From: Patescibacteria group bacterium
GTDB lineage: Bacteria > Patescibacteriota > UBA1384 > CAJBMM01
Assembly (NCBI GenBank): GCA_041660565.1
Contig: JBAZWC010000001.1
Span: forward strand, 174,481 to 238,480
Reading direction: 5' to 3'
DNA: 64,000 nt
Positions 6,846 through 36,500 of the stretch are shown in pieces. The notes beneath the pieces are model-generated. The model was not told the DNA's origin. It saw only the letters and a program-made list of their open reading frames with translations, and did no database searches. A program made the position numbers and the translations under genes. The number at the start of each line of letters is the position of its first letter. The stretch's first letter is position 1.

Positions 6846-6923
6846 TGTCATCCCGGACTCGATCCGGGATCCAGACTATAAACGATTATTTTACATAGAT
6901 TCCGGGTCAAGCCCGGAATGACA
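6846..6923. mobile_element. Miniature (empty) derivative of the GIY-YIG TIR element: two hairpin-containing terminal repeats separated by 15 bp
   Basis: tgtcatcccggactcgatccgggatccagactata plus aacgattattttaca plus tagattccgggtcaagcccggaatgaca. Matches the TIRs at 28603-29018 and 40750-41128. Confidence 0.55.
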
Positions 6924-28488: not shown

Positions 28489-28602
28489 ATTTTAATCCCC
28501 TTCTCTATTTATATTGTCATAGATTATCAGTATTAATGCAAGGGGATAAGATCAGGTATCAAGTTCTGTCATTTTAGATTTGACGTAAGACGTTTTGTCC
28601 TT

Positions 28603-29018
28603 GTCATTCCGGACTTGATCCGGAATCTATATAAAAAAATGTATAATTAATGCTGTATGAGCAAGTATTATTATGTTTATATTCTAGCTAGTTGCAAAAA
28701 TGGTACTTTATATACTGGAGTAACAAACGACCTGATAAAAAGAGTATATGTACATAAAAACAAATACAGCCAAAAAGGCTTTACGACAAAATATGGAATT
28801 TGCCTTCTTGTTTATTATGAAATGACCGAGGATGTGAATAGCGCTATTGCCAGAGAGAAACAAATCAAAAACTGGCATAGATCATGGAAAATCCAACTTA
28901 TTAAAAGTAAAAACCCAGACTGGAAAGATCTGTATGAGGAAATTTGTATATAGTCTGTCCCGAAGTGCGCTCGGGGTTGTTTGTTTTATATAGATTCCGG
29001 ATCAAGTCCGGAATGACA
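28603..29018. mobile_element. GIY-YIG nuclease gene flanked by perfect 32-bp terminal inverted repeats (element copy 1)
   Basis: Left tgtcattccggacttgatccggaatctatata (28603-28634). Right arm (28987-29018) is its exact reverse complement. Each TIR folds as a ccgga-N-tccgg hairpin. Confidence 0.7.
28657..28953 (+). CDS. GIY-YIG nuclease family protein (UPF0213-like)
   Basis: YYVYILASCKNGTLYTGVTNDLIKRVYVHK GIY-YIG motif, 98 aa. Confidence 0.8.
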   Translation: MSKYYYVYILASCKNGTLYTGVTNDLIKRVYVHKNKYSQKGFTTKYGICLLVYYEMTEDVNSAIAREKQIKNWHRSWKIQLIKSKNPDWKDLYEEICI

Positions 29019-29020
29019 GA

Positions 29021-29641
29021 TTAGAATTTCCGGATTACGCCTTTAACTTTTCCTTGCACGGTGACGTTTTTGGTTAGAATTGGTTTCATGGTTTTGTTGG
29101 CTGGCTGCAGGCGGATGTGCGTTTTCTCTTGATAAAATCGTTTAAGCGTAACGTTTTCGCGATCAATTAACGCCACCACAATATCGCCATTTTTAGCCAC
29201 TGTGGTTTGCTCAATAATGACATAATCACCATCAAAAATGCCGTCTTCGATCATTGAATTACCTTTAACTCGTAGTGCGAACACTTTTGGCCCCATCATA
29301 TCGCGTGGGATATCAATAGTCTCATGGGTTCGAACGGCTTGGATGGGTGCACCGGCGGCAATGATGCCCATTAAAGGAGCCGAAAAGCTTTGTTCGTCCC
29401 AAGTTGGGGTTAGCTGTAGTGAGCGTGCTTCGTTGGCTTCGCGGTTTAGATATCCTTTATTAGTTAAACTGTCGATGTGCTCGGCCACGGTGGCAACGCT
29501 AGACAACTTAAAATAATCGGCGATTTCGCGGTAGCTAGGCGCGTAGCCGTTCTCTCCGATGAATTGCTCAATATAGTCCAAGGTTTGTTTTTGTCGTTTG
29601 GTTAATGGATCCATTTGTCCTCCCGATTCTACATCCAGCAT
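29021..29641 (-). CDS. lexA: LexA repressor (S24 peptidase)
   Basis: N-terminal wHTH, KGNSMIEDGIFDGDYVII catalytic Ser/Lys region. Confidence 0.8.
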   Translation of the reverse strand: MLDVESGGQMDPLTKRQKQTLDYIEQFIGENGYAPSYREIADYFKLSSVATVAEHIDSLTNKGYLNREANEARSLQLTPTWDEQSFSAPLMGIIAAGAPIQAVRTHETIDIPRDMMGPKVFALRVKGNSMIEDGIFDGDYVIIEQTTVAKNGDIVVALIDRENVTLKRFYQEKTHIRLQPANKTMKPILTKNVTVQGKVKGVIRKF

Positions 29642-29649
29642 AACCGAAC

Positions 29650-29730
29650 ATAATCCGTAGTGTCAATAGCCGGAAGATAGATGATGGTCTCCGGCTCTAC
29701 GAGCCGATAGACTCAGAGAGAGAATGGAGT
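29650..29730. repeat. Degraded internal fragment of the 157-bp MITE family, reverse orientation, no TIRs
   Basis: Reverse complement ttctctctctgagtctatcggctcgtagagccggagacc resembles the MITE A internal tttctctctccgagccgtaggtctacgagccggaggcc. Confidence 0.35.
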
Positions 29731-29739
29731 ACAATTTGA

Positions 29740-30171
29740 CTATTCTTTTTGAATCCCTTGTTCGTGATCAACGTTTTCAAAATCACTCAATTTTACTAAT
29801 TGTTCGCTGGATAAAAGCGCCTCAACCTGATCTCGGATAACGACTAGTTGGTTCTCTAAGTCAGAAAAATATTCTAATCTAGTTTTCATTTCAAACAGAT
29901 GCGCACCTAATGATGATAGTTCATCTTTCAATGCTGTCGTATAGGCAGATTCCCCGTGATCAATTTGAGGGTTATCACTGCCTGGTGCTTGCAATTCGGC
30001 CTCGATTGCTTTAATTTTCTCGACAATTTCTTGGCTTACAAGCTTTACCGATGGTGCTTGCATTTTCCAGAGTTCAACCTGTTGGTTTATTGATTGCCAT
30101 TTTGCGTTAAGATCGGTCCATAGCTCGGAAACCGGGGCATCTTCGTGATGCATTAGTTCTTGTTCGCTCAT
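29740..30171 (-). CDS. Hypothetical coiled-coil protein
   Basis: ORF only, Glu/Leu/Gln-rich heptad-like sequence. Confidence 0.35.
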   Translation of the reverse strand: MSEQELMHHEDAPVSELWTDLNAKWQSINQQVELWKMQAPSVKLVSQEIVEKIKAIEAELQAPGSDNPQIDHGESAYTTALKDELSSLGAHLFEMKTRLEYFSDLENQLVVIRDQVEALLSSEQLVKLSDFENVDHEQGIQKE

Positions 30172-30174
30172 CTA

Positions 30175-30678
30175 TTATCCTTTTTTATTTATTATACACC
30201 AAACCGCAATTGCGCAAGCGGTGGAGACGTTAAGTGAGTTCACATCGCGGTGCATTGGAATAAAAATATGCTTGGTCGATTCGGCTAGTGCAAAGCGATC
30301 AACCCCATCGACTTCGTGGCCAACAATTAGGGCGGTTTTTGGTCCTGGGGAAAAGTCGGCTAATGGGATCGCGTCAGACGTTATCTCTAGCGACACGATT
30401 TCGTATCCATTATCCTGGCATTGCTTGATGGCGTTAGACGTATTGTCAAAATATGTCCACTTAACTTTGGTTTCACCGCCCAGAGCAGTTTTGTGTATTT
30501 CGGCGCGTGGAGGAGTTGCAGTCATGCCGCATAGGTACAACTCGTCGACGTTTAATCCAGCGGCCAGTCTAAAAATCGCCCCGACGTTATACATCGACCG
30601 CACGTTGTCTAAAATAATAATCAATTTCTGTTTTGGTGTCATTATGGCAATACTAGCATAAAATTTATGCAAAATCAT
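30175..30678 (-). CDS. SpoU/TrmH-family RNA 2'-O-methyltransferase
   Basis: ALIVGHEVDGVD and C-terminal SLNVSTACAIA knot motifs. Confidence 0.6.
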   Translation of the reverse strand: MILHKFYASIAIMTPKQKLIIILDNVRSMYNVGAIFRLAAGLNVDELYLCGMTATPPRAEIHKTALGGETKVKWTYFDNTSNAIKQCQDNGYEIVSLEITSDAIPLADFSPGPKTALIVGHEVDGVDRFALAESTKHIFIPMHRDVNSLNVSTACAIAVWCIINKKG

Positions 30679-30704
30679 TTTTAATTAAATAAAATTATGG
30701 TATA

Positions 30705-30860
30705 GTTTTGCCATCCTCGGCTAGTTTAGCCAACCGTTGCTGAAGCCGCGTTTTCGCGCGGTGGAAGAGTTGGCGCCTACCAGTTTCTGGTGGGTAGTGT
30801 CATGGCATCAACTGAGTTCAAGCATGCCGTTGAGTCTTGAATCCTAAGTAGTCGGGGGTG
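30705..30860 (+). ncRNA. Candidate structured non-coding RNA immediately upstream of the reverse transcriptase (possible retron msr/msd-type template RNA)
   Basis: GC-rich untranslated stretch after an extended -10 (tggtatagt). Hairpins ccgcg-ttttcg-cgcgg, ccag-ttt-ctgg and ggggcgag-N8-ctcgcccc. No ORF with SD. Confidence 0.3.
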
Positions 30861-31907
30861 ATCGAAGGGGCGAGGACGTTCTCTCGCCCCTTGTACCTTA
30901 CATCGAAAGGTGGTGATCTGGAGTTGAGCTATGGCTTACGACCAACCGAAGCGGCTGATTGGCTGATTCGCCGCTGTGAATTACCGCGGGAGTGGCGAGG
31001 TTACTTGGCCAGTGTAGTTGTTAAGCCGAGTAGCCAGTTTTACCACCAGTGGCAAATGCCGAAGAAAAACGGTGGATATCGGGTGATCCTGTCGCCGCTT
31101 GAACCACTGAAATCCGTTCAACGCCAGATTCTTCGCCACGTGCTGTGTGACCTAAGGATTTCGAGTGCGGCACACGGATTCGTAGGTGGTAGAGACATCA
31201 TTACTAATGCTCTACCCCATCTTCAGTCTCACTCCATGCTTGGTCTAGACTTGGCGGACGCATTTGGTAACGTCTGGCTTGGTTGGATGGCGTATCGTGA
31301 ATCGCCTAGGAAGACCACAGGACTAAAACTGGGTTTGCATCTGGACACTTGGCAGGCACTGTTGCCGTTTATCAGTTATGTGGACGATGATGACGGGATT
31401 CTGCCACAAGGCGCACCAACGTCGCCGGCGATTTTCAATGCAATGTGTTGTCGAATGGACACAATGCTGCTGAAACTTGCCAAAAACGTGGGCGGAGTGT
31501 ACACACGCTACGCCGACAACCTGACCTTTTCGATGCCAGGACCTTCAGTGGGGCAAAAGTTGATCAACGCAATCTTGCGTATTGTTGATGACGATGGTTT
31601 CCCACTGAATGATGACAAAACGCAACTACTACGCAGTGCCAACAACTTTAACCGGCCACTGCGCCTGCCAGGGCTGAACATCATTAATGGCCAACTAGTT
31701 CTGCCCGCCGACACACTAAAGCGCTTTCGTAGCGCTATGTACCGCGCTGGTCAGGACAGTTGCAGTGATGATGACGAAGTGCGCGATCATGCACGTCGAT
31801 CGCGTAGAGGCATCAAGGGATACGTCATTCGCATCTACGGCGAGTTGCCGCCACAACTACGTGGCATGTACGAAAAAGGACGCATACACGCGTCCGAAGA
31901 GACCTGA
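30858..31907 (+). CDS. Reverse transcriptase, retron-type (RT domain only, 349 aa), motif C reads YADN instead of YADD
   Basis: Motifs in order: KKNGGYRVI, ITNALPH (NAxxH), LGLDLADAFGNV, LPQGAPTSPAIFN, VYTRYADNLTF. GTG start. Alternative starts are possible. Confidence 0.75.
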   Translation: MIEGARTFSRPLYLTSKGGDLELSYGLRPTEAADWLIRRCELPREWRGYLASVVVKPSSQFYHQWQMPKKNGGYRVILSPLEPLKSVQRQILRHVLCDLRISSAAHGFVGGRDIITNALPHLQSHSMLGLDLADAFGNVWLGWMAYRESPRKTTGLKLGLHLDTWQALLPFISYVDDDDGILPQGAPTSPAIFNAMCCRMDTMLLKLAKNVGGVYTRYADNLTFSMPGPSVGQKLINAILRIVDDDGFPLNDDKTQLLRSANNFNRPLRLPGLNIINGQLVLPADTLKRFRSAMYRAGQDSCSDDDEVRDHARRSRRGIKGYVIRIYGELPPQLRGMYEKGRIHASEET

Positions 31908-31937
31908 TCCCCTACTGTCCGGACTGGGTGGTGGGGG

Positions 31938-31965
31938 TTCTTTTTATATAGATTCCGGACTCGAG
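31938..31965. repeat. Partial or degenerate GIY-YIG-family terminal repeat
   Basis: tatatagattccggactcgagtcc then diverges. Confidence 0.3.
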
Positions 31966-31977
31966 TCCAAATCTAGC

Positions 31978-32015
31978 GGGCGGACACATGGGTCCGCCCC
32001 TACGGAGGTCGTGGC
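31978..32015. repeat. GC-rich hairpin repeat, copy a
   Basis: gggcggacacatgggtccgcccctacggaggtcgtgg, 8-bp stem gggcggac/gtccgccc. Copies at 49139-49205 and 63646-63710. Confidence 0.5.
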
Positions 32016-32026
32016 ACGTGTCATAA

Positions 32027-33301
32027 TCAAGCAGATAGGCGTTCTTGCAGTACCGGTAAGAGCTCGTCGATGTAGATATTATCTTGCAAGCCCGAAACCA
32101 TATCTCGCATAATAATGTGGCCGTTGATTGCCTCTTTCTGCCCAATGATTAAAGTAATGCGGGCACGCAGTCTTTCAGCAATTTGCAGTTGCTGTGAAAT
32201 GCTATCGCTTTCGGTGGCGGTAGTGGCCGAAAAACCGGCATTGTACAATTGTTGTAACAGGGGGATTGATCTTGATTTGGCTTGCTCGCCAAGCTGGGCA
32301 ATAAACACCTGAATACCCTCGGTATCAGGTAAACTAGCGTGGGCATTTTCCAAAAACTGGCTGAATTGTTGCAGATTAAAACTAAGCCCAATGGCCGTTA
32401 GCGGTTGTTCGGCAAGTTGCGAGGCAAAGTTATCATAGTGAAATCCGATTACCGACGGCACCGCTTCATCCCCTACTTTTAAGCCAAAAATGGTTTGCTC
32501 CGCCTCTTCATCGGCAGTGTAAAGGTTCGGATTGACATCATAATTGATGCCCAGAATATCGCAGGTTTCCAGTACGCCGGTAAGCTGATTGTGGCAACTT
32601 AAGCACAAATTATCCAGTAATTGTGGCATTTTGACTAGCCATTCCGCTTTGCTGTCTAACTCGCAATTTGAGATATTTTGAACGGTTGGATTTTCTTTGC
32701 ATCTTGGGCACAGATCGCTGATGTGTGGGTGGACTTGCGATTTGAATAACAGATCAAAATTGGGCCGGCATTTGGCGCATCCGTTGCTGTGCAGCATAAT
32801 TACCGGTTTTTTGAGCTTTAGATCGCACGCCAGCTTTTGTAATAACATTAGGAGCGTGGCGTTGGTGGTAGCATCTTTGGCGCCGATGACATCAAAACAG
32901 TAATAATAATTTTCGACAAATGCGTCGTCTAGCTTTCGCATCGTATTTACTTGATAAGCCAGGTGGACCGGCGGCGGCCAGTGTAAAAAGCCGTTTTCTT
33001 TGTAGCTGCGCATTAAACTGACGCGTGGATGAGCGCGCAAAACATAATGTTCGTCGTTGCTGATCATCTGAGCATCAATAAGTTGATTTTGCCAGTCTTT
33101 GGAGAACGCTAGGTCGTACAATGATTTTGATTCGATTGGTGGGGTGATGACGCGGTGATAGCCAAACGACTGAGATAAATGATCAAGAATGGAGATACTT
33201 AGTTGCCAATAGCGCTGTGAATCCGGTAAAATATCGCTTAATCCTTTTGGATTACGGTACTTGAACGGTGGTTCGACTATTTCATTACTATTTATACGCA
33301 T
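32027..33301 (-). CDS. Histidyl-tRNA synthetase-like protein with degenerate class II catalytic motifs and a CxxC..CxxC insertion
   Basis: N-terminal KGLSDILPDSQRYWQ resembles HisRS. LRAHPRV replaces LRPEGT, motif 2 arginines absent, motif 3 reads GFHYDN instead of GGRYD. C-terminal anticodon-binding-like ITLIIGQKEAINGHIIMRDM. Confidence 0.55.
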   Translation of the reverse strand: MRINSNEIVEPPFKYRNPKGLSDILPDSQRYWQLSISILDHLSQSFGYHRVITPPIESKSLYDLAFSKDWQNQLIDAQMISNDEHYVLRAHPRVSLMRSYKENGFLHWPPPVHLAYQVNTMRKLDDAFVENYYYCFDVIGAKDATTNATLLMLLQKLACDLKLKKPVIMLHSNGCAKCRPNFDLLFKSQVHPHISDLCPRCKENPTVQNISNCELDSKAEWLVKMPQLLDNLCLSCHNQLTGVLETCDILGINYDVNPNLYTADEEAEQTIFGLKVGDEAVPSVIGFHYDNFASQLAEQPLTAIGLSFNLQQFSQFLENAHASLPDTEGIQVFIAQLGEQAKSRSIPLLQQLYNAGFSATTATESDSISQQLQIAERLRARITLIIGQKEAINGHIIMRDMVSGLQDNIYIDELLPVLQERLSA

Positions 33302-33441
33302 TGCCCCTCGATGTATTCAGTTACTAACTGAGCCAAAGTGTAGCAGTTAGCATTTTTTTGTCAAGAGGAGGGGGTGTTGCGCGCAAAATTGTATCGTCAG
33401 CGCCCTTTGCGCGAAACGTTTTTGCGGCTTATAAAAAAATA

Positions 33442-33470
33442 TTGACATAAATATATTATCGGGGTAGAAT
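33442..33470 (+). promoter_or_regulatory. Promoter TTGACA-17-TAGAAT for the GC-rich cassette gene
   Basis: ttgacataaatatattatcggggtagaat, followed by a ggggggagga SD. Confidence 0.45.
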
Positions 33471-33511
33471 GTTCTTGCGTTATCACACGCTGGGGGGAGG
33501 ATATAACGGAA

Positions 33512-33949
33512 ATGAGGTTTCAGGAAACGGTCAAAATGCCGGTTCCAGAAGCGGTGACTATCCCACCGGTTTCCGGGTGGGCTGACATCGTACAGCACAG
33601 TGATAAGAGCATATGTCGCTTGTACCTGGCGGTGACTAGTGCTTCTGATGAGCCGGCAATGTGCGGCAAGGACGTTCTGTACAGGATGAGTCTCAATTGT
33701 AAGACGAGCCACTGTGCGGGCTCGGCGCATGCCGCCTGGCTTCTGGAATGCCCAGAGTCCCGGATTCCGGTTGAATGGCAGCAGGCTAAGCATCTCTTCT
33801 TCCTGAGGGAGGTGTGGGGAGATGAGCAGGGTTACTTGCATGTGTTGGTTGCCCAGCCTGAAGAAGCCGGGAAGTGGACCTTCGGCTATCTAGCCGACTT
33901 CGGCGCCGCCTTGATGGGTCCGCGCGATTGGGTGGTGATGATCGATTGA
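33512..33949 (+). CDS. GC-rich hypothetical protein (145 aa)
   Basis: ATG preceded by a ggggggagga SD. GC-rich coding between AT-rich flanks. Confidence 0.45.
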   Translation: MRFQETVKMPVPEAVTIPPVSGWADIVQHSDKSICRLYLAVTSASDEPAMCGKDVLYRMSLNCKTSHCAGSAHAAWLLECPESRIPVEWQQAKHLFFLREVWGDEQGYLHVLVAQPEEAGKWTFGYLADFGAALMGPRDWVVMID

Positions 33950-34022
33950 CGCCGCCCCTATCCCCCGTTCCGAGGACAACTTGGATCGGGGGAAACTATT
34001 TTTCAATGAATGAATATAAATA

Positions 34023-36500
34023 TTATATGACCATTTCTAGTTCGTCTGAAGTGCGACGAATTAGGACGGTTTTGTTTGGGTTAATTTTTCCCATCAACAC
34101 ACCATCGGCAATTTTATCTTCAATTAAAGTTTGAATAGCGCGGCGAATTGGGCGCGCCCCGTTTTTGGGCTCAAAACCTTTTTCGGCCAGATATTTTCGG
34201 GCGGTTAGGTCAATTTGTAGCTTAATCCCCTTCTCATTCAATCTGGTTAAAAGTTGATTAACTTGGATATCTACAATTTGGCGGATATTTTCCGGCGTTA
34301 AGGGCTTAAAAACAATTGCTTGATCTATTCGGTTTAATAGTTCGGGTTTCATTAGTACCTTAAGTTCTTTGAGCAATTTATCCTTAAGTTGATCATAAGA
34401 TTGGCTGGAGTTTGCGGAATTAAAACCAATTTCGGCATGATGCGTTAGTTCGTCTAGTCCGATGTTGCTGGTCATAATAATAATCGCATGACGAAAATCA
34501 ATCTTGCGCCCCTTGGTATCGGTGATAAACCCATCCTCTAAAATTTGTAATAGAATGTTAAAGGTATCTGGGTGGGCTTTTTCAATTTCATCCAGTAAAA
34601 CCACGCTATATGGATGTCGTCGAATAATTTCGGTTAGTTTGCCGCCTTCTTCGTAACCAATATATCCGGCGGGTGCCCCAATCAACCTAGAAACATTATG
34701 CTTTTCCATAAATTCGGACATATCAATTTTAACTAACGCGTCATCTTTGCCATAAACGCGTCTAGCAATCACCCGCGCCAGCTCTGTCTTGCCCACCCCG
34801 CTTGGCCCAAGAAAGATAAACGAACCAACCGGCCGGTTTGTCTGGCTAATGCCGGTACGCGAGCGCTTGATGGCATTTGAGACGGCAGAAATGGCTTCGG
34901 TTTGCCCGATTATCTCTTTGGCAATAATGGTCTCAATATTTTTGATTTGATTTAATTCGGTTTTGGCTAAAGTTGAGGTGGGGGTGTCGGTGATTTGCGC
35001 CACAGTTTTTTCGATGTCAGAAACGCTTACTAGCGGTTGTCTTGCACTGCTAACTCGATTGTAATTTTTTATCTGATTGTCTATTTTGACAATCTGTTTT
35101 TGTAACTGGTCTGCCACATCGTATCGCTCTTCAAATACGGCGCGATCTTTCTCTTCGGACAACTGATCTTTTTGTTTAATTAAGTTGATCACGCTGGTTT
35201 TTTGGCGCTGATGCATCCGCACGTCGGCTGCGCTTTCATCTAACAAGTCGATCGCCTTGTCTGGCAAAAATCGCCCCGTAATGTACCGAGTGGACAGATT
35301 AACCGCTGCTTCAATGGCTTCGTCGGTAATAGTGACTTGATGATGTTTTTCGTAATTTGCTTTAAGCCCGTGCAAAATTTTGATAGTATCTTTGGGCGTT
35401 GGCTCGGCCACGATAATCGTTTGAAACCGACGCGTTAGTGCCGCATCTTTTTCGATGTGTTTTTGAAATTCATCCAATGTGGTGGCGCCAATCAACCGAA
35501 TTTGACCTTTGGCCAGTGCCGGTTTCAATATCTGTGAAGCGTCTAGCGAGCCTTCGGCGCTACCGGCGCCAATAATGGTGTGTAGCTCGTCGATAAAAAT
35601 GATGCAGTCATTTAATTTGGTAATAGAGTTGATGAATTTTTTGATTCGTTCTTCAAATTGGCCGCGATACATCGTACCCGCCACCATTAGCGATAAATCT
35701 AAATTAAGTACTCTAAAGCCATTGAGGGCGGACGGCACATCGCCATTCGCGATTCGCTGTGCCAATCCCTCTACAATAGCGGTTTTCCCCACCCCGGGTT
35801 CGCCAATAAGCACCGGATTGTTTTTGGTGCGGCGGGATAATATTTTAATTACTCGGTCAATTTCAATTTCGCGGCCGATAACCGGGTCTAGCTCGCCTTT
35901 TCTAGCTTGATCTGTAAGGTCGGTGGCGTAAAGTGCGGCCGGGCTGTTAGCAGATTTCCGGGTTTTGGCGCTAACCGGATCGTCGGGCTGGTTTTGATTA
36001 AATTCAAAATCGTTATCCATATCAAAATTGATGCGGTTTACTCGATCTAATTCCTCAAACAGATTATTGATGTTGGTGGTAATGTTGTCTGGGTTGCCAG
36101 CGCACTCTGAGACTAGCTTATATGCCGAGTTTTCCTTAAACGATAACGTTGCTAACAACAGATGCTCGGTGTCTAGGCCAACATGCCCAAGGGTGGCGGT
36201 TAACTGCATCGCTTTTTCCAAAACGTTAATCAGATCTTTGGTGACCATCGACTTTGGGTCGCTTTGCTCCGCTAAATCATTTTTATGCGCGTTTAGGTAC
36301 TCATCGGCCTTGGTTAGGGTTAAGCCGTTATTGATTAAGACACCGTGTGCCAATGAATCCGGCAATATAAGCAGCGCAAGAATAATATGATATGTGGCTA
36401 AAGGCACATTATTTGCCATAGCGATTTCTTGCGCTTTGATTAACACATCGCGGGTGCTGGGGCTAAATTTTGAAAATTGATCTTCTTGCATATTTGCCAA
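34023..36500 (-). CDS. clpC: ATP-dependent Clp protease ATP-binding subunit ClpC-like (Clp_N plus two AAA+ modules)
   Basis: Two Walker A motifs (GEPGVGKT, GPSGVGKT), N-terminal Clp repeats. Confidence 0.8.
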   Translation of the reverse strand: MANMQEDQFSKFSPSTRDVLIKAQEIAMANNVPLATYHIILALLILPDSLAHGVLINNGLTLTKADEYLNAHKNDLAEQSDPKSMVTKDLINVLEKAMQLTATLGHVGLDTEHLLLATLSFKENSAYKLVSECAGNPDNITTNINNLFEELDRVNRINFDMDNDFEFNQNQPDDPVSAKTRKSANSPAALYATDLTDQARKGELDPVIGREIEIDRVIKILSRRTKNNPVLIGEPGVGKTAIVEGLAQRIANGDVPSALNGFRVLNLDLSLMVAGTMYRGQFEERIKKFINSITKLNDCIIFIDELHTIIGAGSAEGSLDASQILKPALAKGQIRLIGATTLDEFQKHIEKDAALTRRFQTIIVAEPTPKDTIKILHGLKANYEKHHQVTITDEAIEAAVNLSTRYITGRFLPDKAIDLLDESAADVRMHQRQKTSVINLIKQKDQLSEEKDRAVFEERYDVADQLQKQIVKIDNQIKNYNRVSSARQPLVSVSDIEKTVAQITDTPTSTLAKTELNQIKNIETIIAKEIIGQTEAISAVSNAIKRSRTGISQTNRPVGSFIFLGPSGVGKTELARVIARRVYGKDDALVKIDMSEFMEKHNVSRLIGAPAGYIGYEEGGKLTEIIRRHPYSVVLLDEIEKAHPDTFNILLQILEDGFITDTKGRKIDFRHAIIIMTSNIGLDELTHHAEIGFNSANSSQSYDQLKDKLLKELKVLMKPELLNRIDQAIVFKPLTPENIRQIVDIQVNQLLTRLNEKGIKLQIDLTARKYLAEKGFEPKNGARPIRRAIQTLIEDKIADGVLMGKINPNKTVLIRRTSDELEMVI

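What the first reader, a model, noticed from the sequence alone, without database searches (positions are those of the whole stretch)
30680..31920. Retron-type reverse transcriptase in a GC-rich cassette with a structured upstream non-coding region and a YADN motif-C variant
ORF 30858-31907 (349 aa) has, in order: KKNGGYRVI; ITNALPH (the NAxxH element typical of retron-family RTs); LGLDLADAFGNV (motif A Asp); LPQGAPTSPAIFN; and VYTRYADNLTF. The canonical Y-x-D-D has its second Asp replaced by Asn (codons gac aac). It has no maturase or endonuclease domain and no DGR-style SQ motif. It is preceded by an extended -10 promoter and about 150 nt of GC-rich, hairpin-rich untranslated sequence (30705-30860, hairpins at about 30746-30761, 30780-30790 and 30867-30890). 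That is the position where retron msr/msd RNAs lie. No effector gene is adjacent: the flanks are a SpoU methyltransferase and a HisRS-like gene. The cassette is followed by a GC-rich hairpin repeat. A standalone RT with a possibly non-canonical active site may be a defence-type or repurposed RT.
Basis: partly seen in the sequence, partly recalled or inferred. Interest (0 to 1): 0.8.

Follow-up and report, generated by a model that had tools for sequence, protein, structure and literature searches.

The report
Effector-less retron-like RT with YADN site
This is a stand-alone reverse transcriptase gene preceded by its own conserved folded RNA, built like a bacterial retron but belonging to an undescribed branch found in tiny-genome Patescibacteria, in which one of the three catalytic aspartates is replaced by asparagine and no partner "effector" gene is present.

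Summary
A retron-type RT gene lies at 30924-31907. A roughly 180-nt structured non-coding RNA (30712-30892) precedes it, transcribed from an extended -10 promoter.

The RNA has retron priming architecture. A 12-bp a1/a2 stem closes a multi-branch loop, with an invariant unpaired G (30724) directly after a1. It also has a conserved hairpin (30775-30795), a 53-nt template-like segment and an extra GC-rich hairpin before the ribosome-binding site. The same RNA precedes the RT in 13 homologous loci, with strong covariation.

YADN is not an error. An independent assembly agrees, and Asn is fixed in 42 relatives. These form one clade, and its taxonomically named members are all Patescibacteria. The other catalytic residues stay invariant, so the enzyme is probably still a polymerase.

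The RT matches retron RTs by sequence and fold, but fits none of the 13 defined retron types. It differs from canonical retrons in four ways: no effector gene, no stable msd hairpin, VTG replaced by LPG, and YADN.

Verdict: a new variant of a known kind. msDNA synthesis and biological role are untested.

The parts
30698..30706 (+). Extended -10 promoter element TGgTATAGT. The predicted transcript start falls at about the first base of a1.
   Evidence: Read directly. A comparable TGnTAnnnT element lies 8-15 nt upstream of a1 in the homologous loci (read by eye). The generic -35/-10 scan does not list it, because there is no good -35.
30712..30723 (+). a1, the 5' arm of the closing stem (CATCCTCGGCTA). 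It ends in the near-invariant CTA.
   Evidence: An unconstrained search finds it as the best inverted repeat. It is paired in the MFE and in the centroid structure. Seven of its 9 scored pairs show changes on both sides across 13 loci.
30724..30724 (+). Unpaired G immediately 3' of a1: the putative branching (priming) guanosine.
   Evidence: G in 13 of 13 loci. It is unpaired in the MFE. Its position matches that of the branching G of retrons as described in PMC7736814. The chemistry is untested.
30729..30774 (+). SL1, the variable 5' (msr-like) domain: a CCAAC/GTTGG stem enclosing a CCGCG(CG) hairpin.
   Evidence: MFE structure. The equivalent domain varies from about 40 to about 280 nt among the loci.
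30775..30795 (+). Conserved hairpin (GCCTACCAG ttt CTGGTGGGT). The clade consensus is CTTGCCAG-N3-4-CTGGCGAG. It is the candidate RT recognition stem-loop.
   Evidence: Present in 13 of 13 loci, always 53-63 nt upstream of a2. 98% of cells are paired, and 5 of 8 pairs show compensatory changes. It occurs upstream of only 1 of 160 type XIII-like RT genes.
30796..30848 (+). msd-like, template-candidate segment of 53 nt, ending in the conserved AAG just before a2.
   Evidence: Its length is constant (53-63 nt) but its sequence varies across the 13 loci. It is no more stable than shuffled sequence: z ranges from -2.1 to +1.45 and is -0.28 for the window. The template role is inferred from its position only.
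30849..30860 (+). a2, the 3' arm of the closing stem (TAGTCGGGGGTG).
   Evidence: It begins with TAG and is preceded by [A/G]AG in 12 of 13 loci.
30865..30892 (+). Terminal GC-rich hairpin: 11 bp, AAGGGGCGAGG / TCTCGCCCCTT, loop ACGTTC. It lies between a2 and the ribosome-binding site.
   Evidence: The region just after a2 folds strongly in all 13 loci (-18 to -32 kcal/mol for the 65-nt segment after a2, dominated by this hairpin), although the sequences differ. All 8 scored pairs show changes on both sides. It is absent between a2 and the RT start in the type XIII-like loci examined.
30907..30916 (+). Shine-Dalgarno sequence AAGGTGGTGA.
   Evidence: Read. It ends 7 nt before TTG 30924. Homologous loci have GGAG-type sites at the same place.
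30924..31907 (+). Reverse transcriptase CDS: 327 aa, TTG start, TGA stop.
   Evidence: Pfam RVT_1. Retron RT models give the best matches. AF2 mean pLDDT is 93.3. The fold matches retron RTs over its whole length. The start is inferred from the SD, from alignment with homologues and from the confidently modelled N-terminal helices.
31509..31520 (+). Motif C codons TAC GCC GAC AAC = Y196 A197 D198 N199.
   Evidence: Read. N199 aligns to the second Asp of YADD in retron Ec67 RT. D198 and N199 are invariant in 42 clade members. An independent assembly is identical.
31909..31947 (+). Intrinsic terminator of the RT gene: a 13-pair stem followed by TTCTTTTTAT.

Best explanation
The locus is a self-contained, two-part retron-type element: a promoter, a structured non-coding RNA and an RT gene, with no effector. 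It belongs to a previously unclassified clade of the retron RT superfamily, and the clade's taxonomically named members are all Patescibacteria (CPR).

**What is shown**
- One transcript probably starts at about 30712.
- Its first roughly 180 nt fold into an a1/a2-closed multi-branch RNA, followed by a separate GC-rich hairpin.
- The RT (30924-31907) is a retron-fold enzyme.
- All the polymerase residues that remain invariant in the clade are intact (motif A Asp, motif B QGxxTS, first motif C Asp), but the second motif C Asp is Asn.

**What is inferred**
- The RT binds the conserved CCAG/CUGG hairpin (30775-30795).
- It uses the 2'-OH of the unpaired G30724 as primer and copies the adjacent unstructured segment backwards from about A30847. 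This would give a short branched RNA-DNA (msDNA) of at most about 55 nt.
- The Asn would make it a slow enzyme with a different metal preference, as in the Ty1 RT D211N mutant.
- The terminal hairpin (30865-30892) insulates the RNA module from the ribosome-binding site. It may set the 3' end or stability of the RNA, or tune RT translation.

The biological output is unknown. It could be defence through a partner encoded elsewhere, or a domesticated cellular role.
For: **RT identity**
- Pfam RVT_1 only.
- The best PADLOC and NCBIfam models are all retron RTs.
- All 14 PDB sequence matches and the top 18 Foldseek matches are retron RTs. The AF2 model has pLDDT 93.3.
- NAxxH is present, and its His is invariant.

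**RNA**
- Fold z = -5.3.
- The expected a1/a2 pair is the best-scoring inverted repeat in 8 of 13 loci without constraints, and is found at the anchored position in 12 of 13.
- The G after a1 is present in 13 of 13 loci.
- 95% of cells are paired, 20 of 25 pairs show changes on both sides, 0 of 500 shuffles reach this, and the signal collapses when partners are slid.
- Unconstrained folds of 8 loci give the same multi-branch architecture.
- Positive control: the same a1/a2+G search recovers 14-25 bp inverted repeats followed by a G, ending 12-55 nt before the RT start, in 6 of 10 type XIII-like sister loci examined. That is the arrangement expected of canonical retron a1/a2.

**Active site**
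- D109, Q162, G163, S167 and D198 are invariant in 42 clade members at 27-46% identity. This argues for retained catalysis.
- Four DD members are nested in the DN clade, so the two states appear interchangeable.
- Ty1 RT with YXDN keeps polymerase activity, with kpol down 223-fold and a Mn2+ preference (PMC2148107).

**No effector**
- The 13 loci share no recurrent neighbouring gene.
Against: - No msDNA, transcript or activity data exist.
- The template-candidate segment has no stable hairpin, unlike the long-stemmed msd hairpin that PMC7736814 describes for retrons.
- The VTG triplet is replaced by LPG or similar.
- YxDD is not intact. In retroviral RTs, mutating any of the three aspartates severely disrupts polymerase activity (as cited in PMC2148107).
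- One locus (L004) lacks a convincing a1/a2.
- The helix alignment used for covariation was built by hand, and two of its three helices were located by complementarity. It therefore leans towards the structure.
- The tree is neighbour-joining without support values.
Confidence: 0.6

Rival explanations
1. The RT has given up DNA synthesis. The Asn marks a catalytically dead or nearly dead enzyme that survives as an RNA-binding subunit of an RNP with the upstream RNA, for example as a regulator, scaffold or sensor.
For: - The second catalytic Asp is lost in 42 relatives.
- Mutating any of the three aspartates severely disrupts retroviral RT activity (cited in PMC2148107).
- The would-be template has no msd-like hairpin.
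- No effector is present that could read out an msDNA.
Against: - The remaining polymerase residues (motif A Asp, first motif C Asp, motif B QGxxTS) are invariant over 42 sequences that are otherwise only 27-46% identical. That is not expected after loss of catalysis.
- The priming G and the a1/a2 junction are invariant.
- YXDN in Ty1 RT still polymerises.
- DD and DN forms are intermixed in the clade.
Confidence: 0.17
2. The upstream structure is only a cis-acting leader of the RT mRNA, such as an attenuator, a translational switch or a stability element, and is never used as a template.
For: - The terminal hairpin sits directly before the Shine-Dalgarno sequence.
- Its pyrimidine-rich 3' arm and tail could pair with the purine-rich SD (the pairing is my inference).
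- The RNA and the RT gene share one promoter.
Against: - A leader does not need a long-range closing stem with an invariant unpaired G at the junction.
- Nor does it need a conserved hairpin held at a fixed 53-63 nt from a2.
- 14-25 bp inverted repeats followed by a G, as in retron ncRNAs, lie upstream of the type XIII-like sister RTs.
Confidence: 0.12
3. It is a member of another RT system (group II intron, DGR, DRT/UG/Abi), or a decaying or mis-sequenced gene.
For: - It is solitary and GC-rich relative to its surroundings.
- It scores below the curated cut-offs of the named retron families.
Against: - Group II RT scores 28 bits and Drt2 36 bits, against 141 bits for the retron St85 family.
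- No intron or other Rfam RNA was found.
- No maturase or endonuclease domain is present.
- No TR/VR-like direct repeats were found.
- The ORF is intact, an independent assembly is identical, and homologues are conserved in 13 loci.
Confidence: 0.03

Closest known systems
Bacterial retrons in general (RT + msr/msd ncRNA; e.g. Retron-Eco1/Ec86, Eco2/Ec67, Eco7/Ec78)
   Same: - The RT fold and sequence family match.
- The NAxxH motif is present.
- The ncRNA lies immediately upstream on the same strand.
- a1/a2 inverted repeats close the RNA, with an unpaired conserved G directly after a1.
- From my memory of the Ec86 sequence, its junction (a1...UUA-G / G-UAA...a2) resembles CUA-G / G-UAG here. 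This is a lead, not a test.
   Different: - There is no effector gene, so the element is not tripartite.
- YADN replaces YADD.
- The VTG triplet is replaced by (L/R)(P/L)G.
- The template-like segment is short (53-63 nt) and lacks a stable hairpin.
- a1/a2 is short (7-12 bp).
- An extra conserved hairpin lies between a2 and the RT start.
Type XIII retrons (Mestre et al. 2020, PMC7736814; many of the type XIII-like hits here are from Myxococcota and Cyanobacteria)
   Same: RT_XIII is the best-scoring PADLOC model for the window RT. In both, a G follows a1, and the ncRNA ends shortly before the RT start.
   Different: - The window RT scores 198 bits, against 660 bits for a bona fide member.
- Other clade members score best against different models: RT_other for P0128 and RT-TIR_XII for P0256.
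- The roughly 150-aa N-terminal extension is absent.
- There are no SWIM/winged-helix or ARM/HEAT accessory genes.
- The conserved CCAG hairpin is absent from 159 of 160 type XIII-like loci.
- The terminal hairpin is also absent there.
Ty1 reverse transcriptase D211N mutant (YXDD to YXDN), PMC2148107
   Same: It has the same substitution at the same catalytic position. It shows that an RT can still add nucleotides with Asn there: more slowly, and preferring Mn2+.
   Different: It is an engineered mutant of a eukaryotic LTR-retrotransposon RT, and it is biologically defective. Here the Asn is the natural state, conserved across a whole clade.
Motif C GDN of the RNA polymerases of non-segmented negative-strand RNA viruses (from general knowledge; papers listed were not read)
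   Same: It is a natural, active right-hand polymerase with Asp-Asn in motif C.
   Different: It is an RNA-dependent RNA polymerase of unrelated lineage. It serves only as an analogy.

Membership tests
Retron (RT + msr/msd ncRNA) | RT groups with retron RTs by sequence and fold | tested here: met
   All 14 PDB sequence matches and the top 18 Foldseek matches are retron RTs. Retron models rank first in PADLOC and NCBIfam.
Retron (RT + msr/msd ncRNA) | NAxxH motif (region X) | tested here: met
   The window has NALPH. The His is invariant in 42 clade members.
Retron (RT + msr/msd ncRNA) | VTG triplet (region Y, RT7) | tested here: inconclusive
   The G is kept in nearly all members, and PMC7736814 calls it the most conserved residue. 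V-T is replaced: the window has LRLPGLNI, and the clade consensus is PLRLPG(V/L)NI.
Retron (RT + msr/msd ncRNA) | Canonical YxDD catalytic motif | tested here: not met
   The window has YADN. There are 42 DN and 4 DD sequences in the clade.
Retron (RT + msr/msd ncRNA) | Adjacent ncRNA closed by a1/a2 inverted repeats | tested here: met
   30712-30723 pairs with 30849-30860. The pair is present in 12 of 13 loci, with covariation.
Retron (RT + msr/msd ncRNA) | Conserved branching G immediately 3' of a1 | tested here: met
   G30724. G in 13 of 13 loci, and unpaired in the folds. This holds at the sequence level only; the 2'-5' branch itself cannot be tested with these tools.
Retron (RT + msr/msd ncRNA) | msd region forming a long stable hairpin (10-50 bp stem) | tested here: not met
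   The 13 segments have z from -2.1 to +1.45 against shuffles, and no conserved stem.
Retron (RT + msr/msd ncRNA) | Production of msDNA | not testable with these tools
   This needs nucleic-acid extraction or in vitro reverse transcription.
Retron (RT + msr/msd ncRNA) | Associated effector gene or fused effector domain (tripartite system) | tested here: not met
   The RT carries RVT_1 only. The neighbours differ in all 13 loci.
Retron type XIII | Full-length, high-scoring match to the type XIII RT model, including the N-terminal extension | tested here: not met
   The window scores 198 bits in two stretches, against 660 bits for P0010. The extension is absent.
Retron type XIII | Linked SWIM/winged-helix protein and ARM/HEAT repeat protein | tested here: not met
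   No such Pfam families occur among the neighbours in the window or in the 13 loci.
Group II intron RT | Maturase/X domain and intron RNA domains | tested here: not met
   Pfam finds RVT_1 only. TIGR04416 scores 28 bits against a cut-off of 300. No Rfam intron match was found.
Diversity-generating retroelement | Template/variable repeat pair near the RT | tested here: not met
   No direct repeat longer than 24 nt occurs in 28500-34200. DGR RTs appear only as distant fold matches (rank 33).
DRT / UG / Abi defence RTs | Match to a DRT/UG/Abi model above retron models | tested here: not met
   Every one of the 25 PADLOC models listed for the window RT (of 52 that match) is a retron RT model. Drt2 scores 36 bits against a cut-off of 390.

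The most novel reading that the evidence does not exclude
This is a retron-derived RNP that Patescibacteria have kept, partly by vertical descent, for a job other than classical abortive-infection defence. Its RT, re-tuned by the Asp-to-Asn change, would make only a very short or slowly made branched cDNA from an unstructured 53-63 nt template, or use different metal or nucleotide chemistry. It would act without any dedicated effector protein.
Probability: 0.2. Interest if true: 0.8.

Novelty: new variant of a known kind. Interest (0 to 1): 0.62.

Why it matters
- **Effector-less retrons.** Retrons are currently understood as three-part defence systems in which the msDNA guards an effector. 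This clade keeps the RT and a retron-style priming RNA but has no effector. It sits in some of the smallest bacterial genomes known. So it asks what an RT-RNA pair does on its own.
- **The catalytic site.** It offers a natural, conserved YxDN active site in a prokaryotic RT, alongside a sister YxDE group. This gives a direct way to test how far the 'three aspartates' rule can be relaxed.
- **Possible tools.** Retron RTs are used for genome editing, so a compact 327-aa RT with a short unstructured template and a defined recognition hairpin could be useful if it is active.
- **Annotation.** The NCBI start codon for this gene removes the first 43 residues. The element is annotated only as 'reverse transcriptase family protein'.

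Tried and rejected
1. **Type XIII retron membership.** Rejected. The score is low compared with a genuine member, there is no N-terminal extension and there are no accessory genes.
2. **Shared ncRNA with type XIII.** The CCAG hairpin occurs in 1 of 160 loci, and there is no terminal hairpin.
3. **Variable segment as a guide or spacer.** No significant complementarity was found elsewhere in the window (best 11 nt, E = 0.5). The whole RNA has no match in 50,697 phage records.
4. **DRT2-like rolling-circle gene synthesis.** The segment lengths (53-63 nt) are not consistent modulo 3. I did not pursue this further.
5. **Phage origin.** No clade member or clade-type RNA occurs in IMG/VR. The 33 motif matches are at chance level, and none has an RT downstream. 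Three unrelated retron-like RTs with YADN do occur there.
6. **Finding more loci.** The degenerate-pattern scans of genome and metagenome contigs returned only type XIII-like RTs, because the QGAPTSP pattern dominated.
7. **Alignment method.** MAFFT alignment of the natural RNA sequences put a2 and the terminal hairpin out of register. I therefore counted covariation on fixed-length helix segments joined by artificial linkers. No covariance model was built.
8. **GIY-YIG link.** The small GIY-YIG genes are multi-copy and scattered, and are not linked to the RT.
9. **Sequencing error.** Rejected.
Full report
**1. What is in the sequence**

The six-frame list gives an ORF at 30858-31907 (349 aa, GTG) on the + strand. 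On the - strand it is flanked by a SpoU methylase gene (30175-30678) and a HisRS-like gene (32027-33301) (Pfam). Pfam finds only RVT_1 (E = 3e-18).

NCBI annotates the product as a 283-aa 'reverse transcriptase family protein' of a Patescibacteria MAG, starting at ATG 31053 (P0001). Neither that start nor GTG 30858 is likely to be right.
- The close homologues begin about 45 residues before the PKK motif.
- The window has a strong Shine-Dalgarno sequence, AAGGTGGTGA, at 30907-30916, ending 7 nt before an in-frame TTG at 30924.
- The residues encoded from that TTG are modelled as confident helices (pLDDT 96-98).
- GTG 30858 lies inside a conserved RNA structure (section 3).

I therefore take the CDS as 30924-31907 (327 aa). 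It ends in an intrinsic terminator at 31909-31937 plus a T run.

**2. The RT is retron-type but fits no defined type**

- Every one of the 25 PADLOC models listed for the RT (of 52 that match) is a retron RT model. RT_XIII is best at 198 bits, followed by III-A at 167.
- NCBIfam's best model is retron_St85_RT at 141.5 bits, below its cut-off of 235. Drt2 scores 36 bits and group II RT 28 bits.
- All 14 PDB sequence matches at E <= 1e-5 are retron RTs.
- An AlphaFold model built on 56 sequences has mean pLDDT 93.3 and pTM 0.89. Its 18 best Foldseek matches in the PDB are all retron RTs, aligned over essentially the whole length. Group II, DRT9, G2L4, DRT2 and DGR RTs follow.
- A genuine type XIII RT (P0010) scores 660 bits on RT_XIII. 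Other members of the window's clade score best on different models: RT_other for P0128 and RT-TIR_XII for P0256.

The clade is therefore an unassigned branch of the retron RT superfamily, not a type XIII retron. It also lacks the roughly 150-residue N-terminal extension of type XIII RTs.

**3. The upstream RNA**

The leader 30712-30895 folds at -85 kcal/mol, against -60.6 +/- 4.6 for shuffled sequence (z = -5.3). Its elements, in order:

| Element | Coordinates | Note |
|---|---|---|
| a1 | 30712-30723 | pairs with a2; 12 bp |
| unpaired G | 30724 | directly after a1 |
| SL1 | 30729-30774 | variable stem-loop domain |
| conserved hairpin | 30775-30795 | 9 bp |
| template-like segment | 30796-30848 | 53 nt, weakly structured, ends in AAG |
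| a2 | 30849-30860 | pairs with a1 |
| terminal hairpin | 30865-30892 | 11 bp, GC-rich; lies outside the a1/a2 stem |

An extended -10 element, TGgTATAGT (30698-30706), would place the transcript start at about the first base of a1.

I fetched the DNA for 12 further clade members and read their upstream regions. Every one has the same layout:
- a TGn-type -10;
- a1 ending in CTA, followed by G;
- a 5' domain of very variable length (about 40-280 nt);
- the hairpin CTTGCCAG-N3-4-CTGGCGAG;
- a segment of 53-63 nt;
- [A/G]AG followed by a2 beginning TAG;
- a GC-rich hairpin with a different sequence in each locus;
- a Shine-Dalgarno sequence and the start codon.

The a1/a2 evidence is as follows.
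- An unconstrained search for the best inverted repeat followed by a G returned the expected a1/a2 in 8 of 13 loci.
- At the anchored position it is present in 12 of 13. L004 is the exception.
- Unconstrained MFE folds of eight loci give the same a1/a2-closed multi-branch shape.

MAFFT put the natural sequences out of register. I therefore cut out the three helices at fixed length, joined them with constant linkers, and counted pairs.
- 95.1% of 325 cells are standard pairs, against 73.4% in shuffles.
- 20 of 25 pairs have changes on both sides.
- 0 of 500 shuffles reach any of the five measures.
- Sliding the partners by 1-3 columns drops pairing to 30-50%.

One caveat applies. Helices 1 and 3 were located by complementarity, so this alignment leans towards the structure. 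However, a1/a2 is anchored by the invariant CTA-G and AG-TAG sequence motifs, and the middle hairpin was placed by sequence conservation.

**4. Comparison with the nearest retrons**

The genome and metagenome scans returned 160 RT loci, all with YADD. These are type XIII-like.

Running the same a1/a2+G search on ten of them recovered 14-25 bp inverted repeats followed by a G in six, ending 12-55 nt before the RT start. That is the arrangement expected of canonical retron a1/a2. No intervening GC hairpin was seen. This serves as a positive control for the method and shows the shared plan.

The CCAG/CTGG hairpin occurs upstream of only 1 of the 160.

According to the retron classification paper, the msd normally forms a long hairpin of 10-50 bp, and retron RTs carry NAxxH and VTG (PMC7736814). 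Here:
- NAxxH is present (NALPH);
- the G of VTG is kept, but V-T is replaced (LRLPGLNI; clade consensus PLRLPG(V/L)NI);
- the template-like segment is no more stable than shuffled sequence in any of the 13 loci (z from -2.1 to +1.45).

**5. YADN**

The codons are GAC AAC at 31515-31520.
- An independent Logan assembly (P0361) is identical over 349 aa.
- N199 aligns with the second Asp of YADD in the solved retron Ec67 RT.
- All 16 first-found clade members have Y-x-D-N.
- An exhaustive profile search of 1.84 billion representative proteins added about 25 more.
- In an alignment of 42 such sequences (27-46% identical to the window RT), the invariant residues include D109 (motif A), Q162, G163 and S167 (motif B), H99 (NAxxH), D198 and N199. 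N199 was a selection criterion; the others were not.
- A neighbour-joining tree, with no support values, places the DN sequences in one clade. Four DD sequences are nested inside it. A small Y-x-D-E group is sister, and tandem double-RT proteins and 'ICG' RTs lie further out.

Conservation of the rest of the catalytic site argues that the enzyme still polymerises. There is experimental precedent. Ty1 RT with the same D-to-N change keeps polymerase activity in vitro, with kpol reduced 223-fold and a preference for Mn2+ (PMC2148107).

YADN has also arisen separately in three unrelated retron-like RTs on IMG/VR contigs. A full-text search for 'YADN' with 'reverse transcriptase' found no relevant paper. 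A search for retrons in Patescibacteria found none that looked relevant by title or abstract.

**6. Context and host range**

No neighbouring gene recurs among the 13 loci. The neighbours include SpoU/HisRS, a T4SS cluster, UvrA, ribosomal protein L20, a serine recombinase, an HD protein, PadR and a glycerate kinase-like gene. The element is therefore solitary.

The named clade members come from Candidatus Berkelbacteria (two clusters), Candidatus Woykebacteria, 'Patescibacteria group' and an unclassified 'bacterium'. The named YxDE sequence is from Candidatus Uhrbacteria.

Whether the element is inherited or mobile is unresolved.
- For inheritance:
  - Locus L170 shares the ClpC / HisRS / SpoU / RT / LexA neighbourhood with the window. 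Its RT identity of 37% falls within the 27-69% range of the neighbours.
  - L003 and L172 share another neighbourhood: IF3, L35, bactofilin and UvrA.
- For mobility:
  - The RT sits at a different position or orientation within those neighbourhoods.
  - In 9 of 13 loci the cassette is 5-15 GC points richer than its flanks. It stays near 0.51 whatever the host GC.
  - L001 lies in a conjugative-type cluster, and L004 lies next to a recombinase.

**7. How it most likely works**

Shown:
- a retron-fold RT;
- a cognate, covarying RNA with retron priming geometry;
- no effector;
- a conserved DN active site.

Inferred:
- The RT recognises the conserved hairpin.
- It primes from the 2'-OH of G30724 and copies the adjacent 53-nt segment starting near A30847, making a short branched msDNA.
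- The Asn slows synthesis or changes its metal dependence.
- The terminal hairpin separates the RNA module from the translation start. Its pyrimidine-rich 3' side could alternatively pair with the Shine-Dalgarno sequence. I offer that only as a possibility.

The output function is unknown.

**8. Rivals and verdict**

- An RT that no longer polymerises is the main rival. It is disfavoured by the invariant catalytic residues.
- A purely cis-regulatory leader does not explain the a1/a2+G junction.
- Group II, DGR and DRT assignments fail their tests.
- A search for a target of the variable segment found nothing.

This is a new variant of a known kind: a Patescibacteria-associated, effector-less, retron-like RT-RNA element with a YxDN active site.

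Noticed in passing
window 28602-29018, 31937-31975, 6890-6906: A lone small GIY-YIG gene (28657-28953) is flanked by 38-nt inverted repeats that are 97% complementary (TGTCATTCCGGACTTGATCCGGAATCTATATAAAAAAA). A further partial copy of this palindromic repeat sits just after the RT terminator, and a degenerate copy lies at 6890. There are 4 matches where 0.02 are expected by chance. It looks like a dispersed palindromic or MITE-like repeat, or the ends of a GIY-YIG cassette.
   Followed up: partly
window 33347-34020: A GC-rich stretch (0.53-0.56) lies between the HisRS-like gene and clpC. It holds only two overlapping ORFs with no Pfam family. It has no Rfam match, and its fold is only weakly better than shuffles (z = -2.1). 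It remains unexplained.
   Followed up: partly
window 32027-33301 (- strand): The 'HisRS-like' protein matches the HGTP anticodon-binding domain. It matches the tRNA-synt_His catalytic domain only weakly (E = 0.002, below Pfam's cut-off). It is only 27% identical to the syntenic HisRS of L170. It is a very divergent HisRS or a paralogue.
   Followed up: no
proteins P0220 (719 aa), P0227 (1381 aa), P0233, P0236, P0247: Some single polypeptides carry two tandem retron-like RT domains (YLDD then YADD). They are among the closest YxDD relatives of the YADN clade. The named ones are from Myxococcota. I do not know this architecture from the literature, and I did not check whether the gene calls are real fusions.
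   Followed up: no
proteins P0251, P0255, P0260, P0288: A small sister group of roughly 300-aa retron-like RTs has Y-x-D-E in motif C and keeps a V/I-T-G triplet. One is from Candidatus Uhrbacteria. This is a second natural departure from YxDD in CPR.
   Followed up: partly
L244:2953-3888, L246:2869-3954, L253:1-927 (IMG/VR contigs): Three otherwise unrelated retron-like RTs on predicted viral contigs also have YADN. Their motif A is canonical (DIKDFF-like), and they carry VCG, LCG or VTG. The Asp-to-Asn change has therefore arisen more than once.
   Followed up: partly
L168:7394-8398 and neighbours (also the un-fetched contig): About 5.5 kb from the RT most similar to the window's (P0124) lies a second, different RT gene (334 aa). 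It is flanked by an HTH gene and a DUF2779 gene, in a stretch that also holds PLDc_2, GIY-YIG and DUF6602 genes. This looks like a defence-island-like region.
   Followed up: no
window 30924 vs 31053: The public annotation (P0001, 283 aa) starts the RT at ATG 31053. That removes 43 N-terminal residues which are conserved in the homologues and confidently folded in the model.
   Followed up: yes
L004:1-352: This is the one clade locus whose a1/a2 does not pair (3 bp only), although the rest of the RNA is intact. It is at a contig end, next to a serine recombinase, and is 66% GC. It may be a decaying or recently moved copy.
   Followed up: no
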